Assembly: GCA_964016885.1 (NCBI GenBank)
Contig: OZ024746.1
Location: 65,410,001-65,474,000 of the forward strand
Source: Eledone cirrhosa
Lineage: Eukaryota
Length of the DNA: 64,000 nucleotides
Direction of reading: 5' to 3'
The notes under the pieces are model-generated. The model was not told the DNA's origin and made no database searches. It saw only the letters and a program-made list of their open reading frames with translations. Shown here one piece after another: positions 16,231 through 56,722 of this stretch. Position 1 is the first letter of the stretch; every line of letters starts with the position of its first letter. The translations under genes were made by a program, and so were the position numbers.

Positions 16231-16431
16231 AAAAGTATGACCCCGACGGCAGAGCTCAAGCCGTTTCGACGGTTATTTCTGGACGAGAAATAGTCCAGAA
16301 ATAGCAGTCGAAACGGCTTGGGCTCTGCCGTCGGGGTCATACATTTTCCTATTACTCACTCTACTACCCTAAGTATTGAGTACTCTGGTGCCTTATGGTC
16401 CATCTGGTTCCTTAACACAACTCCTTCGTTA
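16226..16431 (+). mobile_element. Family G fold-back mini-element with half-hammerhead arms
   Basis: Arms of about 55 bp (GGAAAAGTATGACCCCGACGGC...CTGGAC / GTCCAG...GCCGTCGGGGTCATACATTTTCC) plus an ~80-bp tail, between (TA)n runs. Confidence 0.85.
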
Positions 16432-19350: not shown

Positions 19351-19915
19351 AGTGTAATTTACTACACAAAACGAAGGTTATAGAGAAAATTGAGGTTGGT
19401 AATGGCACATGGAATATATAAGAGACAGAATACTTTTTTGTGAAAAAACATATAATTTTATAAGGTAAGGAAATAATAAAGGGTATAAAAAATGACCGGT
19501 TTCGATGGGTCTGCAAAAGCCATCTTTTCAAATGTTGATTAATATTAAGAAAAATTAATAATAAGAAGAGTTAAAATTTGAGATTTGAAAATTCAAGTAT
19601 AGAATTCATTGTGGGATTTCATAGTAGTTTTCATCTTGGTAGCAACTCGTTGCTACCAAGATGAAAACTACTATGAAATCCCACAATGAATTCTATACTT
19701 GAATTTTCAAATCTCAAATTTTAACTCTTCTTATTATTAATTTTTCTTAATATTAATCAACATTTGAAAAGATGGCTTTTGCAGACCCATCGAAACCGGT
19801 CATTTTTTATACCCTTTATTATTTCCTTACCTTATAAAATTATATGTTTTTTCACAAAAAAGTATTCTGTCTCTTATATATTCCATGTGCCATTACCAAC
19901 CTCAATTTTGTCTCT
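19347..19915. mobile_element. HHR family B fold-back element (261-bp near-perfect palindrome)
   Basis: Arms 19386-19646 / 19649-19909 with a 2-nt centre; mirror ORFs 19531(-)/19764(+) confirm the symmetry. Flanked by (TA)n. Confidence 0.9.
19759..19806 (+). ncRNA. Degenerate hammerhead motif (family B; mirror copy 19489-19536 on minus)
   Basis: aacat-TTGAAAA-GATGG-cttttgcagac-CCATC-GAAA-CCGG-TC-atttt. Palindromic stem III and GUC site intact; CUGANGA box altered. Confidence 0.5.
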
Positions 19916-23010: not shown

Positions 23011-23182
23011 ATACCCCCCCTTATATAAGGAGGCAATTGTAGTTTACTTGAAGCATTGCGTAATGAGATATAAACGTTTGGAGTTAGAAAGCCAAAACAA
23101 TGCAGATATGGATATAGAATATAAATACAAATGCAAAAGATATTGCTGACAATTAGTCTTTTACCTTAAATTTATTTTAATA

Positions 23183-23220
23183 TCCTTAATTTTCGAGATA
23201 GTATCTCTTCTTCGGAGGGA
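23183..23220 (-). ncRNA. Degenerate hammerhead in the Penelope pLTR
   Basis: ccct-CCGAAGA-A-GAGAT-act-ATCTC-GAAA-AT-TA-agga. Confidence 0.55.
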
Positions 23221-23625
23221 AGTAAAGGGGTTAATCCAGTGTTCTAATTAGCTTGCCAAGTCATGCTGACAGGAAATGGTATAGAAATTCCATTCTATTT
23301 CTAATGTCAAAGAGTGATGGTTAGGTGGATAAAAGTTGTCTCCCTTTAAAAACGGTTTGGACATGTATGTCTAAGTGTGTGTGGAAGAATACGTGAAGGT
23401 GTAAGCATGCGTGTGTATGTGTGTGTGTGTGTGTGTGTGTATGAGTGTGAGAGGATATGTTTATATGTGAATGTGGGGGCTAGATGCTCTATCATGTTGA
23501 AACTGGTCTTTGTGTGTGTATGTGTGTGTGAGAGAGAATAAGTGGAGTTGTAAGCGTGCGCGTGTGTGTGTGTGTGTGTGTGAGAGAGGGTACGTGGAGG
23601 TGTAAGTGTGGGGCTAGGTGCTCTA

Positions 23626-24130
23626 TCATGTTAAAAATTGGTTGTTGAGTTCTAGTCTGTTATTGATTGGTGGGTACGTTTTGTCTATAATCAGTGCTTC
23701 TTTAATTCTAAGATTGCCGAACGTTCTTTCCTTAGCTTCTATCCTAACTATTATGTTTTTGCATTTCACTAGGTGTTTCTTAAATGAGGAAGCGTTAGTG
23801 TTGAGGTGTTCTTTTATTCTTATATGAAGTGGTCTGATGGTCTATGTAGAAATTGCTGCATTTGTCGCACTCTAATCTGTATACGACGTAAGCCTGGTGA
23901 CATAGGTCTGTGTCGTTGATGGGGCAGTTGGCTAGCCTGCAACAGCTGTCATGTCTGGTGGAGTGTCTTTTGGTTAGCTGTCCGCGTAGAGAAGGTCCTG
24001 AGTGAGCTAGCTGGATATCTAGTCCCTCTCGTCTGACAGCTCTGCGGATGGCTGTTGTTGTTTCGTCACTGAAGTGTGGGAGCTTCAGGAAGCAGGTGTT
24101 AGTGCCTCGGGTGTGGTTTTCTCTGTTGTT
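23626..24130 (-). pseudogene. Penelope GIY-YIG endonuclease C-terminal fragment (inverted copy)
   Basis: ...VVYRLECDKCSNFYI...RPLHIRIKEHLNT...NLRIKEALII...PPINNRLE...FLT*; preserves the C-terminus that is lost from the plus copy. Confidence 0.85.
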
Positions 24131-24262
24131 TAAGGATATTAAAATAAATTTAAGGTAAAAGACTAATTGTCAGCAATATCTTTTGCATTTGTATTTATAT
24201 TCTATATCCATACCTGCATTGTTTTGGCCTTCTAACTCCAAACGTTTATACCTCATTACGCA

Positions 24263-26660
24263 ATGCTTCAAGTAAACTACTATTTCCTCCTTTCCTTACG
24301 TCTGAGCCAGGCCCAGCTTACAACTGTAAAGAAACTCTTCCATCTACCTGAAAATCGCGCCAAAGCCGGCTGCCAAACAAACTTCCTCAAACGGTGCCTG
24401 AATAACAACATTACCCCAAATATTATCAAAAACCTGCACCTACCAACATGCTTCAAATCACCAGGCCTCAAACGATCATACAAAAATTCTGACTAAGAAA
24501 ACTCATACAACACCTACTCCGCACGCTACAACAACACATACGGACTATTTCCAGCCAAGTACCACAACTCGCTGAAACCTCAGAACCTCTGCTCAGAGTA
24601 ATTTCCGCCGCTATAGACACGTCATACCACCATCGCCGAGATTACGAGAAAATACGCCTAAAGCAAACATTTCTCCAACTCAGCACGGCTGACCGTCTTA
24701 ACAACAACCCAACTCTAAGCACCAACAGAGGCGAACAAGACGGTACCAACATCGAACCTAGCGGCGCCCCGACCAACAACACACCTGACGCAAAACACCT
24801 CGTCACAGACTTGACAGGATCTCTCTCCCGAGATGAACTAGACCTCCTCAGCCTGGGTCCCAAGTTCATATTGAAACAGAGACTGGACGACAAATTATGG
24901 CTCAACATAGAAACGAATTTCTGTCGGGCCGCCTACTAACTAAAATGGATATCGACCCTCGGCAACAACACCACGGAATCTAACACAACTAGATTCCCGA
25001 TATACCAACTGGACCGCCCAATCTGTCCACCACCTGCCAACCGCGAGCTGGAAGAAGTATTTAATATCTTACGGAAACAGAAGAAGATAGTCCCAAACCT
25101 CTTCAGGACGCAACAACTCGCCCTGAAGAACCTGCGGAATAGGGAACTCATATACTTACCATCCGACAAAGGTAAAGAGTTCTCTGTCATCTCTCAAGCC
25201 ACATACAACAAACTAGCCTTTGAACACTTAAGCGACAACGAACTGTATACAAAGGTCCCGGACATAACTGCAGCCCAGATCGAAAAACAGGCCAACTCCA
25301 TCTGGTTCGATATCTGTAGTAGAAGACAACTCCCAAATAAATTTAAGTTCAACTACACCACTAGAAATAGCAGACTGCCCACTTTCTATCACCCGATAAA
25401 GACCCACAAGAATAGTACTAAGACACAAATAAGACCCAACGTCTCGAGCATAGAAGCGCCCCTATACAAAATCTCCTGGCTCCTCTCCCAGGTCCTTAAA
25501 CCTCTACTCTCCACCTTTCCCGGGCATGTCAGTAGCTCCGACCAGGTCATACGTAGACTACACCAACTCCAGCCAGAACAACTTAAACTAAATAGATACG
25601 CCTTTAGCCTCCACGTTGTCTCCCTCTACACTACAGTCCCCGCTTATCCAGCTGTCGATTTATTGATGGAGTGCGTGGTCGCAGAAGACGTCCACTGTTA
25701 CGGCCTCCATCCGACGGACATACACCAGCTTTTGTCCTTCACAGTGGACAACACGTACTTCACCTTCCCCCACCACATATACAGTCAGACAACAGGATTA
25801 CCCATGGGATCCAGCCTATCGGGCCTGCTGGCCATCACTTATATGAACCAGCTAGAATGCCGAGCCCTCAACACCTGCCATTCCTACACCTTCTTCACCC
25901 GATATGTAGATGACATACTCATCCTTACATCATCCCGTGAAGAAGCCGATAAAATATACATGGACGCATGGACGCCAATATAAAGTTCAGCATGGAACAC
26001 CCTGATGACCGCGGATCCCTATCCCTATTAGAATTCCAACTCAGGGTAACAGAGGAAAGGGACATCCACACCTGCTTCCATAAAAAAGCCACCAGTAGGG
26101 ACCTGTTCGTACATTTCAGATCGGCCCTCCCAGTCAGCGCTAAGTTCGGATACATAAGGAACGAACTAACACGTATCCGCAACAAATGCACCGACGGAAG
26201 AGATCGAGACACACCACACATTTCCTGGAAGAACTTAAACTGAACGGATACCCGACGTCCACGGCGAACGGTGCCAGAAACAACAGAGGACACCACACCC
26301 GAGGCACTAACACCTGCTTCCTGAAGCTCCGACACTTCAGTAACGAAACAACAACAGCCATCCGCAAAGCTATCAGACGAGAGGGACTAGATATCCAGCT
26401 AGCCCACCCAGGATCTTCTCTACGCGGACAGCTTACCAAAAGACACTCCACCAGACATGACAGCCGCTGAAGGCTAGCCAACTTCCCCATCAACGACACA
26501 GACCTATGCCACCAGGCTTACGTCGTATACAGATTAGAGTGCGACAAATGCAGCAATTTCTACATAGGTAGCACCATCAGGCCACTTCACATAAGAATAA
26601 AAGAACACCTCAACACTAACGCTTTCTCATTTAAGAATCACCTAGTGAAATGCAAAAACA
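24263..26660 (+). pseudogene. Penelope-like RT + GIY-YIG ORF, frameshifted with stops
   Basis: Motifs LPSDKG, FSLHVVSLYTTVP, QTTGLPMGSSLSGLLA, RYVDDIL, NGYP and VVYRLECDKCSNFYIGSTIRPLHIRIKEH. Confidence 0.9.
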
Positions 26661-27139
26661 CCGTACTAAGAGTGAGAAATGGAATTTCGTTTCATTTTTT
26701 CCGTTTATCGTTTTCCGTACCCCGGCCGATTAACTCACTCGATATGCAAATTAGGCTGCTCAGCCGTTAATATGCATAAGGAAAGTATATACTTTCAGAC
26801 GTTCAACCATCTGGCAGGAAGGTATACGTTGCTGACGATAGCTAATAAGCTTGAAACTAGTACAGCGTTCCTTTGTCAGTGTTGAACAAATGAGCAACGA
26901 TGGTTGCTAGACACTGTACCGCTTAATTCGGGATGTTTGTTTACAAACACACCGAGCATTATAATAAATGTTCGGTGAATCCATACGTACATATATATAT
27001 GTGTGCATGTATGTATATATATATGTACATACTACTGTACGTCTGTATACATATATGTATGTACGTATACATACTTATATTTAAATAACAGCCGTACTAA
27101 GAGTGAGAAATGAAATTTCGTTTCATTTTTTCCGTTTAT
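26661..27139 (+). mobile_element. HHR family I retrozyme-like element, 431-bp unit with 48-bp terminal direct repeat
   Basis: 26661-26708 is repeated at 27092-27139. It ends in (TA)n and truncates the Penelope ORF; second copy at 41755-42360. Confidence 0.85.
26826..26868 (+). ncRNA. Minimal type I hammerhead ribozyme (family I)
   Basis: ACGTTG-CTGACGA-T-AGCT-AATA-AGCT-T-GAAA-CTAG-TA-CAGCGT; 6-bp stem I, palindromic stem III ACTAGT, GUA site. Confidence 0.85.
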
Positions 27140-28568: not shown

Positions 28569-28633
28569 TATTTCATTATACATATTTCAGGGATACCAAA
28601 TTAAATAATGGTATGCCTTCATCAGACAAAATA
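28569..28633 (-). ncRNA. Type I hammerhead ribozyme (family A, left arm)
   Basis: Reverse complement of 28782-28846. Confidence 0.8.
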
Positions 28634-28781
28634 CAATATATAACAGTTTTACAAATAAGCTTTGACGTACCCTTTTAAAATGCAACCATTATTTTTGGAA
28701 GCCATACGGATAGCTTCCAAAAATAATGGTTGCATTTTAAAAGGGTACGTCAAGGCTTATTTGTAAAACTGTTATATATTG

Positions 28782-28846
28782 TATTTTGTCTGATGAAGGC
28801 ATACCATTATTTAATTTGGTATCCCTGAAATATGTATAATGAAATA
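28782..28846 (+). ncRNA. Type I hammerhead ribozyme (family A, right arm)
   Basis: TATTTTGT-CTGATGA-AGGCATACCA-TTATTTAAT-TTGGTATCCCT-GAAA-TATGTA-TA-ATGAAATA. Confidence 0.8.
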
Positions 28847-33640: not shown

Positions 33641-33642
<2 letters not shown>

Positions 33643-33800
33643 CGAAGGAAGTTTGGTAAGGAACCAGATGGACCCTAACGCACCAGAGTACTCAATACCC
33701 AGGGTAGTAGAGTGGGTAATAGGAAAATGTTTAACCCCGACAGTAGAGCTCAAGCCGTTTCTGGACTCCAGAAATAGCCGTCGGGGTTAAAATTTTCCTA
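33641..33800 (-). mobile_element. Family G fold-back mini-element
   Basis: Reverse complement of the 16300-16431 arm/tail plus a short inverted arm gccgtcggggttaaaattttcct; (TA)n flanks. Confidence 0.8.
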
Positions 33801-41756: not shown

Positions 41757-42360
41757 AGTATGTACACGTACATACATATATGTATACAGACATACAGTAG
41801 TATGTATATATATATATACATACATGCACACATATATATATGTACGTATGGATTCACCGAACATTTATTATAATGCTCGGTGTGTTTGTAAACGGAAAAA
41901 AATGAAACGAAATTTCATTTCCCACTCTTAGTACGGCTGTTACTTAAATATAAGTATGTACACGTACATACATACATTTTTTCCGTTATCGTTTTCGGTG
42001 CACCCGGCCGATTAACCCACTCGATATGCAAATTGGGCTACTCAGCCGTTAATATGCATAAGGTAAGTATATACGTTCAACAATCTGGCAGGAAGGTATA
42101 CGTTGCTGACGATAGCTAATAAGCTTGAAACTAGTACAGCGTTCCTTTGTCTGTTGAACAAACGAGCAACGATGGTTGCTGGACACTACGGCTTAATACG
42201 GGATGTTTGTTTACAAACACACCGAGCATTATAATAAATGTTCGGTGAATCCAATCCATACGTACATATATATATGTGTGCATGTATGTACATACTTATA
42301 TTTAAGTAACAGCCGTACTAAGAGTGGGAAATGAAATTTCGTTTCATTTATTCCGTTTAT
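41755..42360. mobile_element. HHR family I element with inverted, rearranged 5' arm
   Basis: 41976-42360 matches 26695-27139; 41755-41975 consists of inverted pieces of its 3' part. (TA)n flanks. Confidence 0.85.
42100..42142 (+). ncRNA. Minimal type I hammerhead ribozyme (family I)
   Basis: Identical to 26826-26868. Confidence 0.85.
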
Positions 42361-42472: not shown

Positions 42473-42480
<8 letters not shown>

Positions 42481-42954
42481 ATACTTTGGGAGGGTCATGT
42501 TGCCAATAAGAAAACACACGAACCAGTTGCTTTCACTCCAATTTATTATAAATTAAATTTATAAATTTAAGAATTTATAAATTCCCGGTGGCTGATTGGT
42601 TCCACAACCGGACGGTTGTTCATATATTGTCAAAGTTATTTCGTCACACATTATGTGACCTCTTCAGTGACTGGGGATTCTTTACTTTGTTTTGTACCTC
42701 TACTTTGTTCTGTCCTACGCCATCTTTTTTCTGTGTGAACTTTGACAACATATGAACAACCGTCCGGTTATGGAACCAACCAACCAACCGGAAATTTATA
42801 AATTCTTAAATTTCTAAATTTAATTTATAATAAATTGGAGTGAAAGCAACTGGTGCGTGTGTTTCTTATTGGCAATATGACCCTCCCAAAGTATAACAAT
42901 ATCGGTTTCAACACACGTTTTCAGATAAAGAATCTTGCTAAACAAATTCAGAAA

Positions 42955-42956
<2 letters not shown>
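42473..42956. mobile_element. HHR family C fold-back element
   Basis: Arms 42473-42637 / 42738-42902 with a 100-bp centre containing the HHR core; ~55-bp tail; (TA)n flanks. Confidence 0.85.
42629..42671 (-). ncRNA. Hammerhead motif (family C)
   Basis: GTCA-CTGAAGA-G-GTCACA-TAATG-TGTGAC-GAAA-TAAC-TT-TGAC; stem III weak. Confidence 0.65.
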
Positions 42957-42990
<34 letters not shown>

Positions 42991-44994: not shown

Positions 44995-45174
44995 GATAAA
45001 TCTACCAAGAGTTTACGGTAGTGTCCAATCCGTATGAAGAACTCAATGTATTCCGGATATCATGGAAAGAAGAGATGTAATGAAAATCCAATTTCGGTGA
45101 AAGATAAACGGTATACAGAGTCAAGATAAAATAAATAATGAACAAACAATTCCTTATATTAAACAAAAAAAGTT

Positions 45175-45325
45175 CACTATTTAACGATCGTTTCTAGGGC
45201 ATATATGTGCTATAATTGGTATGCATATTTAACAGATCTATGTACAAAATTATACAAAATTATACAAATTATCAAGATTAAATATACATACCTAACTCAT
45301 ATATACGCCGTCTTCAGAAATAATG
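45175..45325 (-). ncRNA. Hammerhead with extended stem II (inverted pLTR copy)
   Basis: Reverse complement of 51007-51157. Confidence 0.7.
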
Positions 45326-45457
45326 AAGTATATTTATTGATAATAACAACAATTCAAAATATCAGTTCAAAATTGACCAATGAAAACACAAAGGGTTAAA
45401 AAGCAGTTTGGTGTGTGTATATACATGTAAAACCCTACACACATTTTACAATAATGT

Positions 45458-47737
45458 GTGTATAATATGTATGTGCATACTAAAAAGATGGATGCAAATA
45501 AAAAATTTTCAAGGTTAATATCTCTTTTTTATTTAATTAAACATCTCAAATTTAAAAAGTATAAATCCGTCTTTCAAAAGGACCTTGATTCTACCCTATT
45601 GGACCTAAAAAAGTCTAAAAAAATCCATGTCCACTCGGACAAAACTGGTAACTTGTATCATATGGATATTGAACATTATAATGAGTTCATATATAAAGAA
45701 CTCAGAAAAAGTTATAAAAAATCTAATAACGCGTCACTCACCAACATCAACAACAAAACACACAACATAGTAAAAAAACTAAATATTGAAGATAGAACTG
45801 AACCTTTGGCATTGAGAAGTCCACACTTTAACCTGAAAGATCACAAATCTAACTTTAACTCTAATCCTTCTATTAGACTTATATGCCCCTCCAAATCAGA
45901 TATTGGAATAATTAGCAAAAAAATTTTAGATAGAGTCATCCCACAAATAAGAAAATACGTTATTTTACCACTCTGGGAAAACACCTCCCAGGTAATTAAT
46001 TGGTTTAAAAATATTAGGTGTAAATCTTCTGCTTCTTTCCTACAGTTTGATATAGATAACTATTATTCTTCTATATCACCCATACTCCTGAACAAAGCAT
46101 TAATATTTGCTAAAAATAGATCTAATTTAACTTCGGATGACATTAACATTATTACACATGCTAGACAAACACTTATTGAATTTCAGAATGAATACTGGAC
46201 CAGAAACACTTATAGTAATCTTTTTGATATTACTATGGGTTCAAGCGATTCTGCCCAAATTACTGATCTTGTGGGCCTCTTTCTCCTTTTCAACATAAAT
46301 GCCTCTTTTCCCCACCTCAAAGGTGGTTTATATCGTGATGACTGTCTTCTTCTTTCTAACAACCTTAGCCTTTCAGAAATCGAAAAAAACAAAAAGCATA
46401 TTAGAACTTTCCTTAAGGACTATTATAATCTTAATATTACTTTTGAAAAAACAAGTAAAGTAGTAAATTTCCTAGATATAACTTTAGATTTAGCTACGGG
46501 TATATACCAACCTTACCATAAACCTAACCAAAACTTACATTACATACACTCACAATCTAATCACCCTAAATCTATCCTTAAAAACCTTGCATATAATATA
46601 TCACTTAGAATTTCTAACCTTTCTTCTAACCAAGATGTATTTGATAAAAATGCGACCTTTTATAATGAAGCTCTAGATAGAAGTGGCCACAAAAATAGAT
46701 TAGAGTATATAACTTCTACTAAAAATACTGAAAACATACAGCAAAATATTACCAACAAACACCAAATGAAAGGTACACACCTAAATGCCACCCACAGTAT
46801 ACCCCAAAATACTAAATCTTCTAATATAAAGTATAGTAACCCTCAAAAAACTACTCATCATAAGACTATAATAAATATTAATAATAAAACTCCTAATAAA
46901 AAAGATAAAACACCTAAATCTACAAATATAACTAAAAATAGTTGTGGTGAGATCATTAACATTATTCCTCCTAGTAAAAATCATGATACAACATATAAAA
47001 ATAATAAAAATAATAAACAACATAGAAACCGTAATAGACGAGTTACTTGGTATAATGCTCCTTTTAATTTACAAGTTAAGGATAATATTGCTAAAAAATT
47101 TTTTTATATCCTTGAGAAAAACTTCCCGCCAAACCACAAATACCATCAAATCTTAAATAGGTCTACAGTTAAATTCTCATATTCTACAACAAATAACATA
47201 AAACAAAATATAAGTGCATATAATGCATATAAATGTAAGAAAACTATAAGTATACCACCAGTACATCAAATTAACAATAATATCTCCTCAAATATAGAAT
47301 TAACGAAAGGATGTAACTGTAGAAATAAAACAAACTGCCCATTAAAAGGGAATTGTCTTGTTAACAACATAGTCTATAAATGTAATGTTAAAACTAAAGA
47401 TTCTATTTGCTCATATATAGGAGCTACCTCTAACAATTTTAAGACAAGGTATAATACCCACAAACATAGCTTTAAAAATGCCGCACTGGCTAATACAACA
47501 TCTCTAGCAGAAAAAATCAATAGTTATAAAAATAAAAATATAAAATATGATTTGACCTGGAGTGTGCTCAAAAGAGCCACCCCTTATCAAAATAATAGAA
47601 AGGAATGTAGATTATGTTCCCAAGAACTATTTGAAATAATGAAGTCTAGGGATATCTTATTAAATAAAAGACAGGAATTAATTATATCGTGTAATCATAA
47701 ACTAAAAAAAACATTTAAATATTATAAACCTAATTAA
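45458..47737 (+). CDS. Penelope-like (Naiad-type) reverse transcriptase + GIY-YIG endonuclease, 5'-truncated but open
   Basis: SDKTGNLY, LKDHK, RLICPSKSDIG, FDIDNYYSSI, MGSSDSAQITDLVG, GLYRDD, NFLDITL, SNHP, CNCR..CPL.G.CL..IVYKC, YIGAT, RYNTH, CRLC..E, LNKRQE..C.H. Homology starts at about 45526. Confidence 0.92.
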   Translation: MYNMYVHTKKMDANKKFSRLISLFYLIKHLKFKKYKSVFQKDLDSTLLDLKKSKKIHVHSDKTGNLYHMDIEHYNEFIYKELRKSYKKSNNASLTNINNKTHNIVKKLNIEDRTEPLALRSPHFNLKDHKSNFNSNPSIRLICPSKSDIGIISKKILDRVIPQIRKYVILPLWENTSQVINWFKNIRCKSSASFLQFDIDNYYSSISPILLNKALIFAKNRSNLTSDDINIITHARQTLIEFQNEYWTRNTYSNLFDITMGSSDSAQITDLVGLFLLFNINASFPHLKGGLYRDDCLLLSNNLSLSEIEKNKKHIRTFLKDYYNLNITFEKTSKVVNFLDITLDLATGIYQPYHKPNQNLHYIHSQSNHPKSILKNLAYNISLRISNLSSNQDVFDKNATFYNEALDRSGHKNRLEYITSTKNTENIQQNITNKHQMKGTHLNATHSIPQNTKSSNIKYSNPQKTTHHKTIININNKTPNKKDKTPKSTNITKNSCGEIINIIPPSKNHDTTYKNNKNNKQHRNRNRRVTWYNAPFNLQVKDNIAKKFFYILEKNFPPNHKYHQILNRSTVKFSYSTTNNIKQNISAYNAYKCKKTISIPPVHQINNNISSNIELTKGCNCRNKTNCPLKGNCLVNNIVYKCNVKTKDSICSYIGATSNNFKTRYNTHKHSFKNAALANTTSLAEKINSYKNKNIKYDLTWSVLKRATPYQNNRKECRLCSQELFEIMKSRDILLNKRQELIISCNHKLKKTFKYYKPN

Positions 47738-48259
47738 TAACATTATTCTAGAATTTAATTTAATTTAAATGTTAGTTAACCTATAAATTTAATTTAATTA
47801 ATATTTTATTACAGATGAGAAAATATTATGTAATCATTAATTTTGAAAAACCTTTAAATATTACTAATATATATTCAGTAATTTAATTTATAGATTAATT
47901 TTAACTTATTTTAACCTTTTATTATAATTTTTTAATTTTTTTTAATTTAGTTTAACCTTTTATTATAAAATTTTTTTTATTATAATTCTTTTACAGATAA
48001 AATATAACAAAATAATATCATGTATCCTATGACGGAGAAAGAATTTTTAGTATTATTGACCTAATTAATATACATTTTGGAAATATATTTATTATTTGGT
48101 TTTAGCTTTAATCAACCTAAAACTTTAATTTTAATTTTAATTTGCTTAAAATTAGTATCCTTGTACAGACGAATTGCAGAATTTCATGTAATCATAGAAT
48201 GGGAGGTGTTTTTGGATATATACCTAGTTTAATATATTCTGTGCAAATTTTTTGAAAAA

Positions 48260-49440
48260 GATATGTATATCTATATGTATATGTATATATGTGTGTATTG
48301 TATGTGTATCTGTATGTATATTTATGTGACTATATATGTATGTACGTGTGTATATATATGTATATATATATATATATATATGTGTATATATATGTATATG
48401 TATGTGTATGTGTATGTATATGTATGTGTATGCGTATTAATTTTGATTTTTATTTGCATATAATTATATTATGCTATTGATGAAATACAATATCTGCTTT
48501 ATGTATTGTATACCTAATTAACATATACTAATTAACATATACTATTGAAATAAATATATAATTTTTAACTTAGTTTACATATAATTTATATGCTACTACC
48601 GATGTAATACTTTATTTTATTTTTATTTGGGTTTCTTTTCCCTATTATTAACTTTAATTTAGTTATAATGTAATTAATAATTTACTATTGTTTGACTTCA
48701 TAATTCTGCTTCAAATATTATAAACCTAACTAATTTACACCTTGGAAATCAATATGTTGACTATCTTTGGTTTAGTTGACATATGATTAATGGTATACTT
48801 TTTTATTTTGTGATGCATAGATTTCGTATTTCCTGGCATTGAAAATATGTAAGAACATACATTGAATTAAGATATGGAAAAATATTATAGGTTTCTTGAA
48901 ACATATATTTACTTTGATCCCCTTCTCCAAACCCCCCCCTTTCCCCCATACTATTATCATCTGTTTTTGTAAGTGTATATGTATGAATATATGGGTAGAT
49001 GGGTTCTATATAGTTTTTTTTGGTATTTATTTCTAGATATAAAAATACATATATGAGCATGTATATATGAATGTAAGATTGAGTGTGTATATATGATTGT
49101 ACATACATATGTATGTATATGTATGTATATATATGTATTATATATGTACGTGTATGTGAATGTGTGGTATATATATGTGTAAGTATATGTATATATGTGT
49201 GCGTATGTGTATGCTTGTATATAGGAATATATGTGTGTGTATATATGTATATATGTATATGCGTGTTTGCATGTATGTGTATATGGGTTCTGTATATATT
49301 TGTATGTCTCTCTATTTATATGTTTATCTTCGTATCTATGTGATATATGTGTGTGTGTGTGCATGTATGCATATGTATGTGTTTGTGTGTGTTTGTATGT
49401 GTGTGTGTATATATATGTATGTATTTGCGCACACTCACAT

Positions 49441-49475
<35 letters not shown>

Positions 49476-49571
49476 AGTGTGTATGTGTGTCTGAATGTGT
49501 GTGCGTGTGTATATATGTGTATATATATATATATATATGTGTATGTATGTGTATGTGTGTGTATATAGATA

Positions 49572-49610
<39 letters not shown>

Positions 49611-49749
49611 ATATAGGTGTCTATGTGTGAATATATGTCTTTATTCGTATGTGTGTATTTATATATGTTTATATTTAGGTGTATGTATGTATGTGTATGT
49701 ATGTATGTATATGTATGTGTATGTATGTATATGTGTATATGTGTGTATA

Positions 49750-49792
<43 letters not shown>

Positions 49793-49884
49793 CTTTATTA
49801 TTATTGTAATATAACTTATGTGTATATGTGTATAAGTGAGGTTGTGTATGTATATATACTATGTGTATATATAAAGGTAATGAA

Positions 49885-49921
<37 letters not shown>

Positions 49922-50034
49922 CATGTCTGTATTTTATGTGTGTGTGTATATATATGTATATATGTGTATGTGTGTATATGTGTATGTATATATGCATATA
50001 TGTGTACGTGTGTGTATGTTTATATATATACATA

Positions 50035-50065
<31 letters not shown>

Positions 50066-50177
50066 CTGGATGTTTGTATGTGTTTTCATGTTGGTATGAG
50101 TGTGGGATATATATGTTTATGTATAAGTATATGTATGTGTATGTATATATATATGAGTCTATGTGTGTGTGTGTATA

Positions 50178-50230
<53 letters not shown>

Positions 50231-50420
50231 ATGTGTGTATGTGTTGCGCGTGTGTGTGTCCGTATTTTTATCTTTTTATATGTGTATGTGTATGTTCGTG
50301 TAAATGTACGTGTGTGTAGGACATTATAGGTATGTGTGTATGTATGTATGTGTAGATATCTCTATGTGCGCGTACATGTATGTATGTGTATGTATATCTG
50401 TATGCGTATGTACATTATAT
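48260..50420. repeat. Compound degenerate (TG/TA)n tracts within the PLE 3' region
   Basis: Directly visible. Confidence 0.85.
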
Positions 50421-51006
50421 TATGTAATATATTTTATTGTTTTTATTTTTTTATTTTTCATAATTTATAGATACATTTATATTAGGCTGTCTGGTCTGAC
50501 AACCTAATACTGACCCCTCCCCCCCCCTCCCACCTAATTTCTGTATCTTGATCTTGAAATGTGTGTATCAGTGTGTTTATGTGAGTGACTTAATTTCTAT
50601 TTGCTTATGATTTTATATCCACATATATAAATGTGAGTGGGGGGTGTGTGTGTGTTTGTGTGTTCGTGGTTATGTGTATATTTTTATATATATACGCACA
50701 TGTATGTGTGATTATACTGATATGTGTGAGTATGAAAAGAAAAAATATATTTATATGCTTGACTACATAAGTATCATTGCGTATTTTATCAGCGCATTAA
50801 GCTTACAGAGATATTAACCTTGAAAATTTTTTATTTGCATCCATCTTTTTAGTATGCACATACATATTATACACACATTATTGTAAAATGTGTGTAGGGT
50901 TTTACATGTATATACACACACCAAACTGCTTTTTAACCCTTTGTGTTTTCATTGGTCAATTTTGAACTGATATTTTGAATTGTTGTTATTATCAATAAAT
51001 ATACTT

Positions 51007-51157
51007 CATTATTTCTGAAGACGGCGTATATATGAGTTAGGTATGTATATTTAATCTTGATAATTTGTATAATTTTGTATAATTTTGTACATAGATCTGT
51101 TAAATATGCATACCAATTATAGCACATATATGCCCTAGAAACGATCGTTAAATAGTG
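51007..51157 (+). ncRNA. Type I hammerhead ribozyme with ~115-nt stem II
   Basis: CATTATTT-CTGAAGA-cGGCGTATAT...ATATATGCCcta-GAAA-CGATCG-TT-AAATAGTG; stem III AACGATCGTT is a perfect palindrome. Confidence 0.75.
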
Positions 51158-51198
51158 AACTTTTTTTGTTTAATATAAGGAATTGTTTGTTCATTATT

Positions 51199-51206
<8 letters not shown>

Positions 51207-53781: not shown

Positions 53782-53953
53782 GTAGGGAAAAGAGTCAGGA
53801 CTCCGACGGCTGAGCTCCGGCCGTTTCGACAGCTAGATCCGAACCCCGTCGGCGTCCTGCCTCTTTTCCCTATTACCCACTCTACTACCCTTAGTGTCGA
53901 GTACTCTGGTGCGTTATGGTCCACCTCGTATCTTACCACACCTTCTTTGTTAT
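53782..53953 (+). mobile_element. Family G fold-back mini-element
   Basis: Inverted arm gggaaaagagtcaggactccgacgg... / ccgtcggcgtcctgcctcttttccc plus tail. Confidence 0.8.
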
Positions 53954-56470: not shown

Positions 56471-56722
56471 AGAAGAAGTGATACAATAGTTAGTTCACCA
56501 TACTGAGAACAAATTTCACCTTATGCGGGTCTTTAGCTCGGGCTGGTGATGGTTATACGGAACAGATACAGCTGTTCCGTATAACCATGATCAGTCCGAG
56601 CTGAAGATCCGCATAAGGTGAAATTTGTTCTTGGTATGGTCAACTAACTGTTGTGTTACTACTTCTACCAAACTCGTCCCATGGACTGAGTGCTCTACCA
56701 CTACGGATATTACCTTCCAGTG
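56471..56722. mobile_element. HHR family H fold-back mini-element
   Basis: Arms 56471-56565 / 56572-56666 plus a 55-bp tail; homologous to 12354-12559. Confidence 0.85.
56596..56634 (+). ncRNA. Minimal hammerhead motif (family H; mutated mirror at 56503-56541 on minus)
   Basis: CCGAG-CTGAAGA-TCC-GCATAA-GGT-GAAA-TTTG-TT-CTTGG. The family consensus stem III appears to be AACAATTGTT. Confidence 0.65.

What the first reader, a model, noticed from the sequence alone, without database searches (positions are those of the whole stretch)
23183..24292. Inversion junctions fall next to the predicted hammerhead cleavage site
Seen: the plus-strand Penelope copy starts at ~24130 with (t)TAAGGATATT, within 2-3 nt of the predicted cleavage (GAAAAT-TA^AGGATATT) of the HHR in the inverted copy (23183-23220). 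Similarly, the family C right arm starts at 42738 (AACTT^TGAC) and family G short arms start at (G)CCGTC^GG (~53844, ~33777). Inference: ribozyme-cleaved RNA ends define template boundaries or switch points during PLE integration, with the few extra upstream bases coming from microhomology or stem III pairing. Counter-examples exist (A, B, D, H arms include the whole HHR).
Basis: partly seen in the sequence, partly recalled or inferred. Interest (0 to 1): 0.7.

Follow-up and report, generated by a model that had tools for sequence, protein, structure and literature searches.

The report
Penelope junctions mostly ignore ribozyme cut
This is an ordinary head-to-head insertion of a Penelope-type jumping gene whose joint lies within three bases of a predicted ribozyme cut site, but most genome copies are joined elsewhere, so the two arms likely come from copying uncut RNA from two start points, with at most a few percent of copies possibly recording a cut.

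Summary
The coordinates are right: the plus-strand Penelope-like copy starts at 24130-24132, 1-3 nt upstream of the predicted hammerhead cut. The rule drawn from it mostly fails. In this family 3 of 133 arms start within -4..+1 of the cut (p=0.26), while 31 of 108 start 71-94 nt upstream (p=1e-8). Family G has no hammerhead core (0 of 25 motifs), and its 33777 example is a deletion between two short repeats. The window's family C arm carries 5 bases upstream of the cut that its partner cannot supply. Genome-wide, family C does show a small bump at -2..+1 (58 of 157 against 37 if uniform, 43-45 with microhomology), but it peaks 1-2 nt before the cut; a class ending exactly at the cut adds nothing to the fit unless an untemplated A is assumed. 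25 of 29 two-armed insertions pair one short with one long 3' end, which fits two priming events on uncut RNA joined by microhomology. The scan has noted this pattern several times on other DNA, in this genome too.

The parts
23027..24131 (-). Left arm: inverted, 5'-truncated Penelope-like copy running from -944 (end of ORF) through the 3' UTR and hammerhead to +160
23180..23222 (-). Predicted minimal type I hammerhead with U4C core (CCGAAGA), 6-bp stem II, 3-bp stem I, palindromic AAUU stem III; predicted cut between 23187 and 23186
   Evidence: no Rfam hammerhead match
23027..23068 (-). Optional 'tail' (+119..+160) between the two fixed 3' ends of the family
   Evidence: 3' ends at +118 (70 of 181 arms) and +156..+160 (84 of 181)
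24130..24132 (.). Head-to-head junction: TT shared by both arms, then one A equal to H17
24130..26660 (+). Right arm: copy starting at -2..0 and running into the broken ORF; cut off near 26660 by another hammerhead-bearing repeat
24940..25983 (+). Reverse transcriptase piece of the ORF
   Evidence: Pfam RVT_1 E=3e-11
26471..26665 (+). C-terminal GIY-YIG endonuclease piece
   Evidence: Pfam GIY-YIG E=7e-5, above cut-off
42477..42737 (-). Family C left arm, starting at -104 (the family's main pile-up) and holding the whole hammerhead (H17 42633)
42737..42957 (+). Family C right arm, starting at -5/-4, with tail
33735..33800 (.). Family G junction; the short 'arm' is a deletion between two GCCGTCG repeats; no hammerhead core
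53786..53870 (.). Family G junction, right arm starting 4 nt before the GUC-like site after a 4-nt insert; no hammerhead core

Best explanation
This is a head-to-head insertion of an endonuclease-bearing Penelope-like retrotransposon whose joint happens to lie within three bases of a predicted hammerhead cut site, and it likely formed when both cut ends of the target DNA primed copying of uncut element RNA at two fixed internal sites and the two copies were then joined by a few matching bases. Shown: two fixed 3' ends about 41 nt apart, one per arm; variable 5' ends; short overlaps at the joints; pile-ups of 5' ends well upstream of the ribozyme. Inferred: the priming order, the joining step, and that the upstream pile-up is the RNA's 5' end and/or a set of self-complementary sites. 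The small bump at -2..+1 in family C is best read as joining bias at a T/TA-rich spot, perhaps with some stalling at the folded, uncut ribozyme.
For: 25 of 29 two-armed insertions pair a +118-type end with a +158-type end, matching the two internal initiation sites and two-strand extension reported for Poseidon in vitro (PMC11167929), where ribozyme mutants did not affect insertion and no RNA-seq reads ended at the cut. Start rate in -4..+1 is 0.38%/nt (3 of 133), against 1.2%/nt in -94..-71 (31 of 108). A genome-wide exclusion pattern gave 8 of 264 copies, 4 real truncations by eye, about 0.35%/nt at an assumed capture of 0.55. 23 of the 30 flush or overlapping joints with up to 5 nt overlap show 1-5 nt of microhomology (55 joints examined, the other 25 have inserts or longer overlaps). 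A class ending exactly at +1 gains 2dLL 0.0-0.3 in family C; the best extra stop is -1 or 0. An AT-rich stretch at +5..+12 is as enriched (32 of 100 rows in 8 nt) as -2..+1 (13 in 4 nt) (read by eye).
Against: Family C keeps an excess after the microhomology model: 58 of 157 against 43-45; subfamily C2 alone 34 of 82, p=0.005-0.02. In the unselected family C sample 3 of 68 arms start in -4..+1 (0.74%/nt, flanks 0.17-0.35). In the finding's family no arm starts in -18..-5 (0 of 130), so the 3 at -4..+1 stand out locally. The window joint itself fits a precise cut plus one untemplated A. With such an A and the most favourable re-reading of 6 rows, a cut class reaches 2dLL 6-9. One family G arm (L233) starts at +1 although no core exists, which shows how easily such hits arise.
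Confidence: 0.7

Rival explanations
1. A minority (about 1-3% of arms) are run-off copies of RNA cut by the hammerhead; an untemplated A on the partner copy, or an A/TA in the target, mimics H17 and shifts the apparent start to 0..-2.
For: Residual excess in C2, whose triplet ends in UA, is stronger than in C1 (UU); window joint needs only one unexplained base, an A; L186 range 0..+2; fit 2dLL 2.4-5.9 for C2 with added A.
Against: No excess at +1..+4 (C2: 17 seen, about 18 expected); zero gain without the added-A assumption; L012 and L187 carry TTA and the window's family C arm 5 upstream bases; the finding's family has a U4C core in 65 of 110 copies, a change reported to lower activity in vitro (PMC3088659).
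Confidence: 0.2
2. One reading: ribozyme-cut RNA ends generally set template boundaries or switch points of inverted arms.
For: Two of the window's hammerhead-family arms start within 5 nt of the cut.
Against: 130 of 133 at-risk arms read through the site; main pile-ups lie 70-110 nt upstream; family G lacks a core; the window holds 10 predicted cores whose arms mostly include them whole.
Confidence: 0.03
3. Head-to-head arms arise by snap-back of one cDNA (or self-priming of an antisense template) at short palindromes rather than by two priming events.
For: The -94..-71 pile-up covers CATG and short hairpins and is stronger in inverted arms (24 of 53) than in the rest (7 of 55); some joints are perfect palindromes; self-priming proposed in PMC3846280.
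Against: Most paired arms have unequal 5' ends and different fixed 3' ends (25 of 29), which a simple fold-back does not predict.
Confidence: 0.07

Closest known systems
Insertion units of endonuclease-bearing Penelope-like elements, Penelope/Poseidon type (PMC3846280 passages; PMC8557442 passages)
   Same: RT followed by GIY-YIG, pLTR with hammerhead, adjacent inverted 5'-truncated copy, 30-40 nt tail at one end only, insertion into (TA)n, microhomology at 5' joints.
   Different: Nothing structural; what is added here is a count of 5' ends against the cut site and the one-short-one-long pairing of 3' ends.
Poseidon of the green anole in vitro (Frangieh et al. 2024, PMC11167929, parts 1-2 of 4 read)
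   Same: Two internal RT start sites bounding the tail; both target strands extended; uncut RNA as main template.
   Different: The parts read do not explain the inverted arm or map genomic 5' ends; here that step is inferred from genomic copies only.
[quoted passage not shown]
   Same: Long stem II with a 5' bulged base, short stem I, 1-2 bp palindromic stem III suited to dimers.
   Different: The finding's family mostly has a U4C core and a 3-bp stem I; the proposed cut-and-circularise role leaves no clear peak at the cut in these copies.
L1 twin priming (recalled, no call)
   Same: Both target ends prime cDNA and the products are joined by microhomology, giving an inversion.
   Different: In L1 the two pieces cover different parts of one RNA; here both arms start from neighbouring fixed sites and overlap almost wholly.

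Membership tests
EN+ Penelope-like element | Reverse transcriptase followed by C-terminal GIY-YIG endonuclease | tested here: met
   RVT_1 E=3e-11, GIY-YIG E=7e-5; family C copy L206 GIY-YIG E=2e-4, just under the cut-off, RVT_1 weak
EN+ Penelope-like element | pLTR, adjacent inverted 5'-truncated copy, optional 30-40 nt tail | tested here: met
EN+ Penelope-like element | RT groups with PLE/telomerase RTs, clade assignment | not tested
   no tree built
Minimal type I hammerhead (finding's family) | Core CUGANGA, GAAA, UH | tested here: inconclusive
   GAAA and UA present; core CCGAAGA in 65 and CTGAAGA in 22 of 110 copies; U4C is a known weak natural variant
Minimal type I hammerhead (finding's family) | Stems I, II and a 1-2 bp palindromic stem III | tested here: met
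   stem I 3 bp, stem II 6 bp, AAUU; no Rfam match; not the lowest-energy fold
Minimal type I hammerhead (family C) | Core and three stems | tested here: met
   CTGAAGA, stem I 4 bp, stem II long, GAAA..UU or UA; no Rfam match
Hammerhead (family G) | CUGANGA core in register with GAAA and UH | tested here: not met
   0 of 25 motifs
Hammerhead (any of these) | Self-cleavage at the predicted bond | not testable with these tools
   needs an assay or RNA end data

The most novel reading that the evidence does not exclude
A small class of genomic Penelope copies are run-off copies of RNA cut by the element's minimal hammerhead, disguised by one untemplated A, and so give a fossil record of in vivo self-cleavage whose size tracks the quality of the cleavage triplet (UA above UU, U4C weakest).
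Probability: 0.2. Interest if true: 0.6.

Novelty: new member of a known kind. Interest (0 to 1): 0.27.

Why it matters
Whether PLE hammerheads cut in vivo and shape insertions is open (PMC4209133 proposes it, PMC11167929 found it dispensable in vitro, PMC8557442 calls the function unclear). These counts put an upper bound on it: in two autonomous families at most a few percent of arms can stem from cut RNA, and the inverted arms are better explained by two-site priming. If the small family C excess is truly from cutting, genome copies would offer an indirect in vivo read-out of ribozyme activity.

Tried and rejected
Rfam gave no hammerhead match in the whole window listing (best 150 of 233 shown) or on the two motifs; minimal motifs were found by my own scan. 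The repeat finder was swamped by microsatellites. The scripted partner search at family C junctions was spoilt by repeats and by loci serving as their own reference, so I used it only to confirm apparent starts. A second hammerhead near -94 in the finding's family was considered; no core precedes its GAAA. Folding of the motifs was not better than shuffles. Transcription start versus palindrome as cause of the upstream pile-up could not be separated. Paper searches listed no study that maps PLE 5' ends against the cut site, as far as I read; supplements were not read and may hold such data.

Full report
Numbering: H17 = 0, first base after the predicted cut = +1.

The locus. The window is 64 kb of a 3.0-Gb, microsatellite-rich genome. 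Self-comparison shows arms 23027-23189 and 24130-24292 as 97% inverted copies and 23754-24131 as an inverted copy of 26278-26660. So a 5'-truncated copy runs leftward from -944 through the 3' UTR and hammerhead to +160, and a second copy runs rightward from -2 into a broken ORF with RT (RVT_1 E=3e-11) and GIY-YIG (E=7e-5). This is the known PLE layout with an adjacent inverted copy and a tail at one end (PMC8557442 and PMC3846280, passages seen). The motif is a minimal type I hammerhead with 3-bp stem I, 6-bp stem II and AAUU stem III; its core is CCGAAGA in 65 and CTGAAGA in 22 of 110 copies. At the joint, TT (24130-31) belongs to both arms and only the A at 24132 does not fit the partner: the range is -2..0.

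The finding's family, genome-wide. 180 loci (partly overlapping, a subset of at least 264 copies) gave 182 arm records. I dropped 1 of low identity and 18 with a direct element neighbour (internal deletions or duplications), leaving 163. Starts per base at risk: +2..+41 0.14%, -4..+1 0.38% (3 of 133, one being the discovery arm; 1.7 expected, p=0.26), -18..-5 none of 130, -44..-19 0.27%, -70..-45 0.41%, -94..-71 1.2% (31 of 108, p=1e-8), -130..-95 0.32%. Sixty loci were fetched with queries that need +1 onward, so the bins right of the cut are undercounted, which favours the cut window. A pattern that excludes intact upstream sequence returned 8 of 264 copies; by eye 4 are truncations (-4, -2, 0..+2, and +1 or -3), 3 are one-base indels and 1 an internal deletion, about 0.35% per base at an assumed capture of 0.55. 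3' ends are fixed: +118 in 70 and +156..+160 in 84 of 181 arms, and 25 of 29 two-armed insertions have one of each.

Family C is an autonomous PLE (YIDD-type RT motif and GIY-YIG in L206) with at least 2752 copies and a canonical core. In the window its left arm starts at -104 and its right arm at -5/-4, so five bases upstream of the cut are unexplained by the partner; a cut 3' fragment could not template them. In 70 unselected loci (first 30 plus 40 regions of the listing; 91 arms kept of 103 records) 15 of 53 arms start in -113..-86 and 3 of 68 in -4..+1. For power I listed copies truncated in -12..+4: all 99 of subfamily C2 and the first 100 of 290 of C1, read by eye. I dropped 9 C2 rows and 12 C1 rows (internal deletions, local duplications, repeated junctions) and the edge class -13 (8 and 13 rows). 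-2..+1 holds 34 of 82 and 24 of 75; together 58 of 157 against 37 if uniform. By position: -2: 15, -1: 26, 0: 10, +1: 7. A simulation with uniform stops gives 38; with microhomology weighting tuned to the observed mean of about 2 nt it gives 43-45 (C1 p=0.2, C2 p=0.005-0.02), and 50-56 with stronger weighting (partner mix assumed). Fitting an extra stop: +1 gains 2dLL 0.0-0.3 with fraction 0-0.03; -1 gains 3-13, 0 gains 2-5. Allowing an untemplated A gives C2 2.4-5.9, and both subfamilies 6-9 only if six ambiguous C1 rows are moved to +1. As an inner control, the AT-rich stretch +5..+12 held 32 of 100 rows against 13 for -2..+1 (by eye; many of the 32 are ambiguous against (TA)n). So a small bump is probably real, concerns roughly 1-3% of arms (rough arithmetic), and sits before the cut.

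Family G (7433 exact hits) has no core near its GAAA..GUC motif (0 of 25). In 30 loci, 39 of 47 at-risk arms start in -47..-28, at a TTAGTC that resembles an initiator (label recalled); of 4 starts in -5..+1, two are deletions between GCCGTCG repeats like the window's 33777 case, one has a direct neighbour and one is a true inverted start at +1.

Mechanism. Shown: fixed, paired 3' ends; scattered 5' ends with an upstream pile-up; 1-5 nt overlaps in 23 of 30 near-flush joints. From literature: Poseidon extends both target strands from two internal sites that bound the tail, uses uncut RNA, and RNA-seq reads did not end at the cut (PMC11167929, parts 1-2 of 4); minimal hammerheads cut poorly in vitro (PMC4209133, parts 1-2 of 4); U4C lowers activity in vitro (PMC3088659, passages). 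Inferred: each target end primes one cDNA, each stops at the RNA 5' end or earlier, and the two 3' ends anneal by a few bases. The first part of bioRxiv 10.64898/2026.07.22.740005 added nothing on junctions. The pile-up may be a transcription start or a palindrome effect; it is stronger in inverted arms (24 of 53) than in others (7 of 55).

Verdict. Observation at the locus right, generalisation mostly wrong, one of three examples invalid; a weak cut-related class stays possible (about 0.2). Earlier notes of the scan reached similar mixed results on other DNA; they are not counted as support.

Noticed in passing
window 33642-33800, 53786-53950, 16310-16429; L219-L248: Family G: very abundant fold-back mini-elements in (TA)n with two fixed 3' ends about 80 nt apart and a hard 5' stop at TTAGTC; L221 upstream encodes a stretch that recalls the C-terminus of a Neptune-type endonuclease (recalled; no Pfam hit). 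No hammerhead core.
   Followed up: partly
finding's family, positions -94..-71 (window 23257-23280): Strong pile-up of arm starts over CATG and short hairpins; transcription start or self-annealing site.
   Followed up: partly
window 45126-51206: 400-nt perfect inverted repeat around a 760-aa open frame (45455-47737) with no Pfam match; possibly a young element of another PLE clade.
   Followed up: no
window 19382-19913, 28577-28838, 56471-56666: Near-perfect palindromes; 28577-28838 carries a canonical-core hammerhead in each arm, centred 130 nt upstream of the cut.
   Followed up: no
window 26654-27139 and 41842-42360: Another hammerhead family (H17 26862, 42136) with nested short inverted pieces; one copy interrupts the finding's ORF.
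   Followed up: no
L122, L069, L079: Copies of different PLE families sit directly against each other's tails, suggesting that (TA)n next to one insertion is a target for the next.
   Followed up: no
family C rows: Several internal deletions remove the ribozyme's stem II/GAAA part between short repeats such as TGAC (stem sequences).
   Followed up: no
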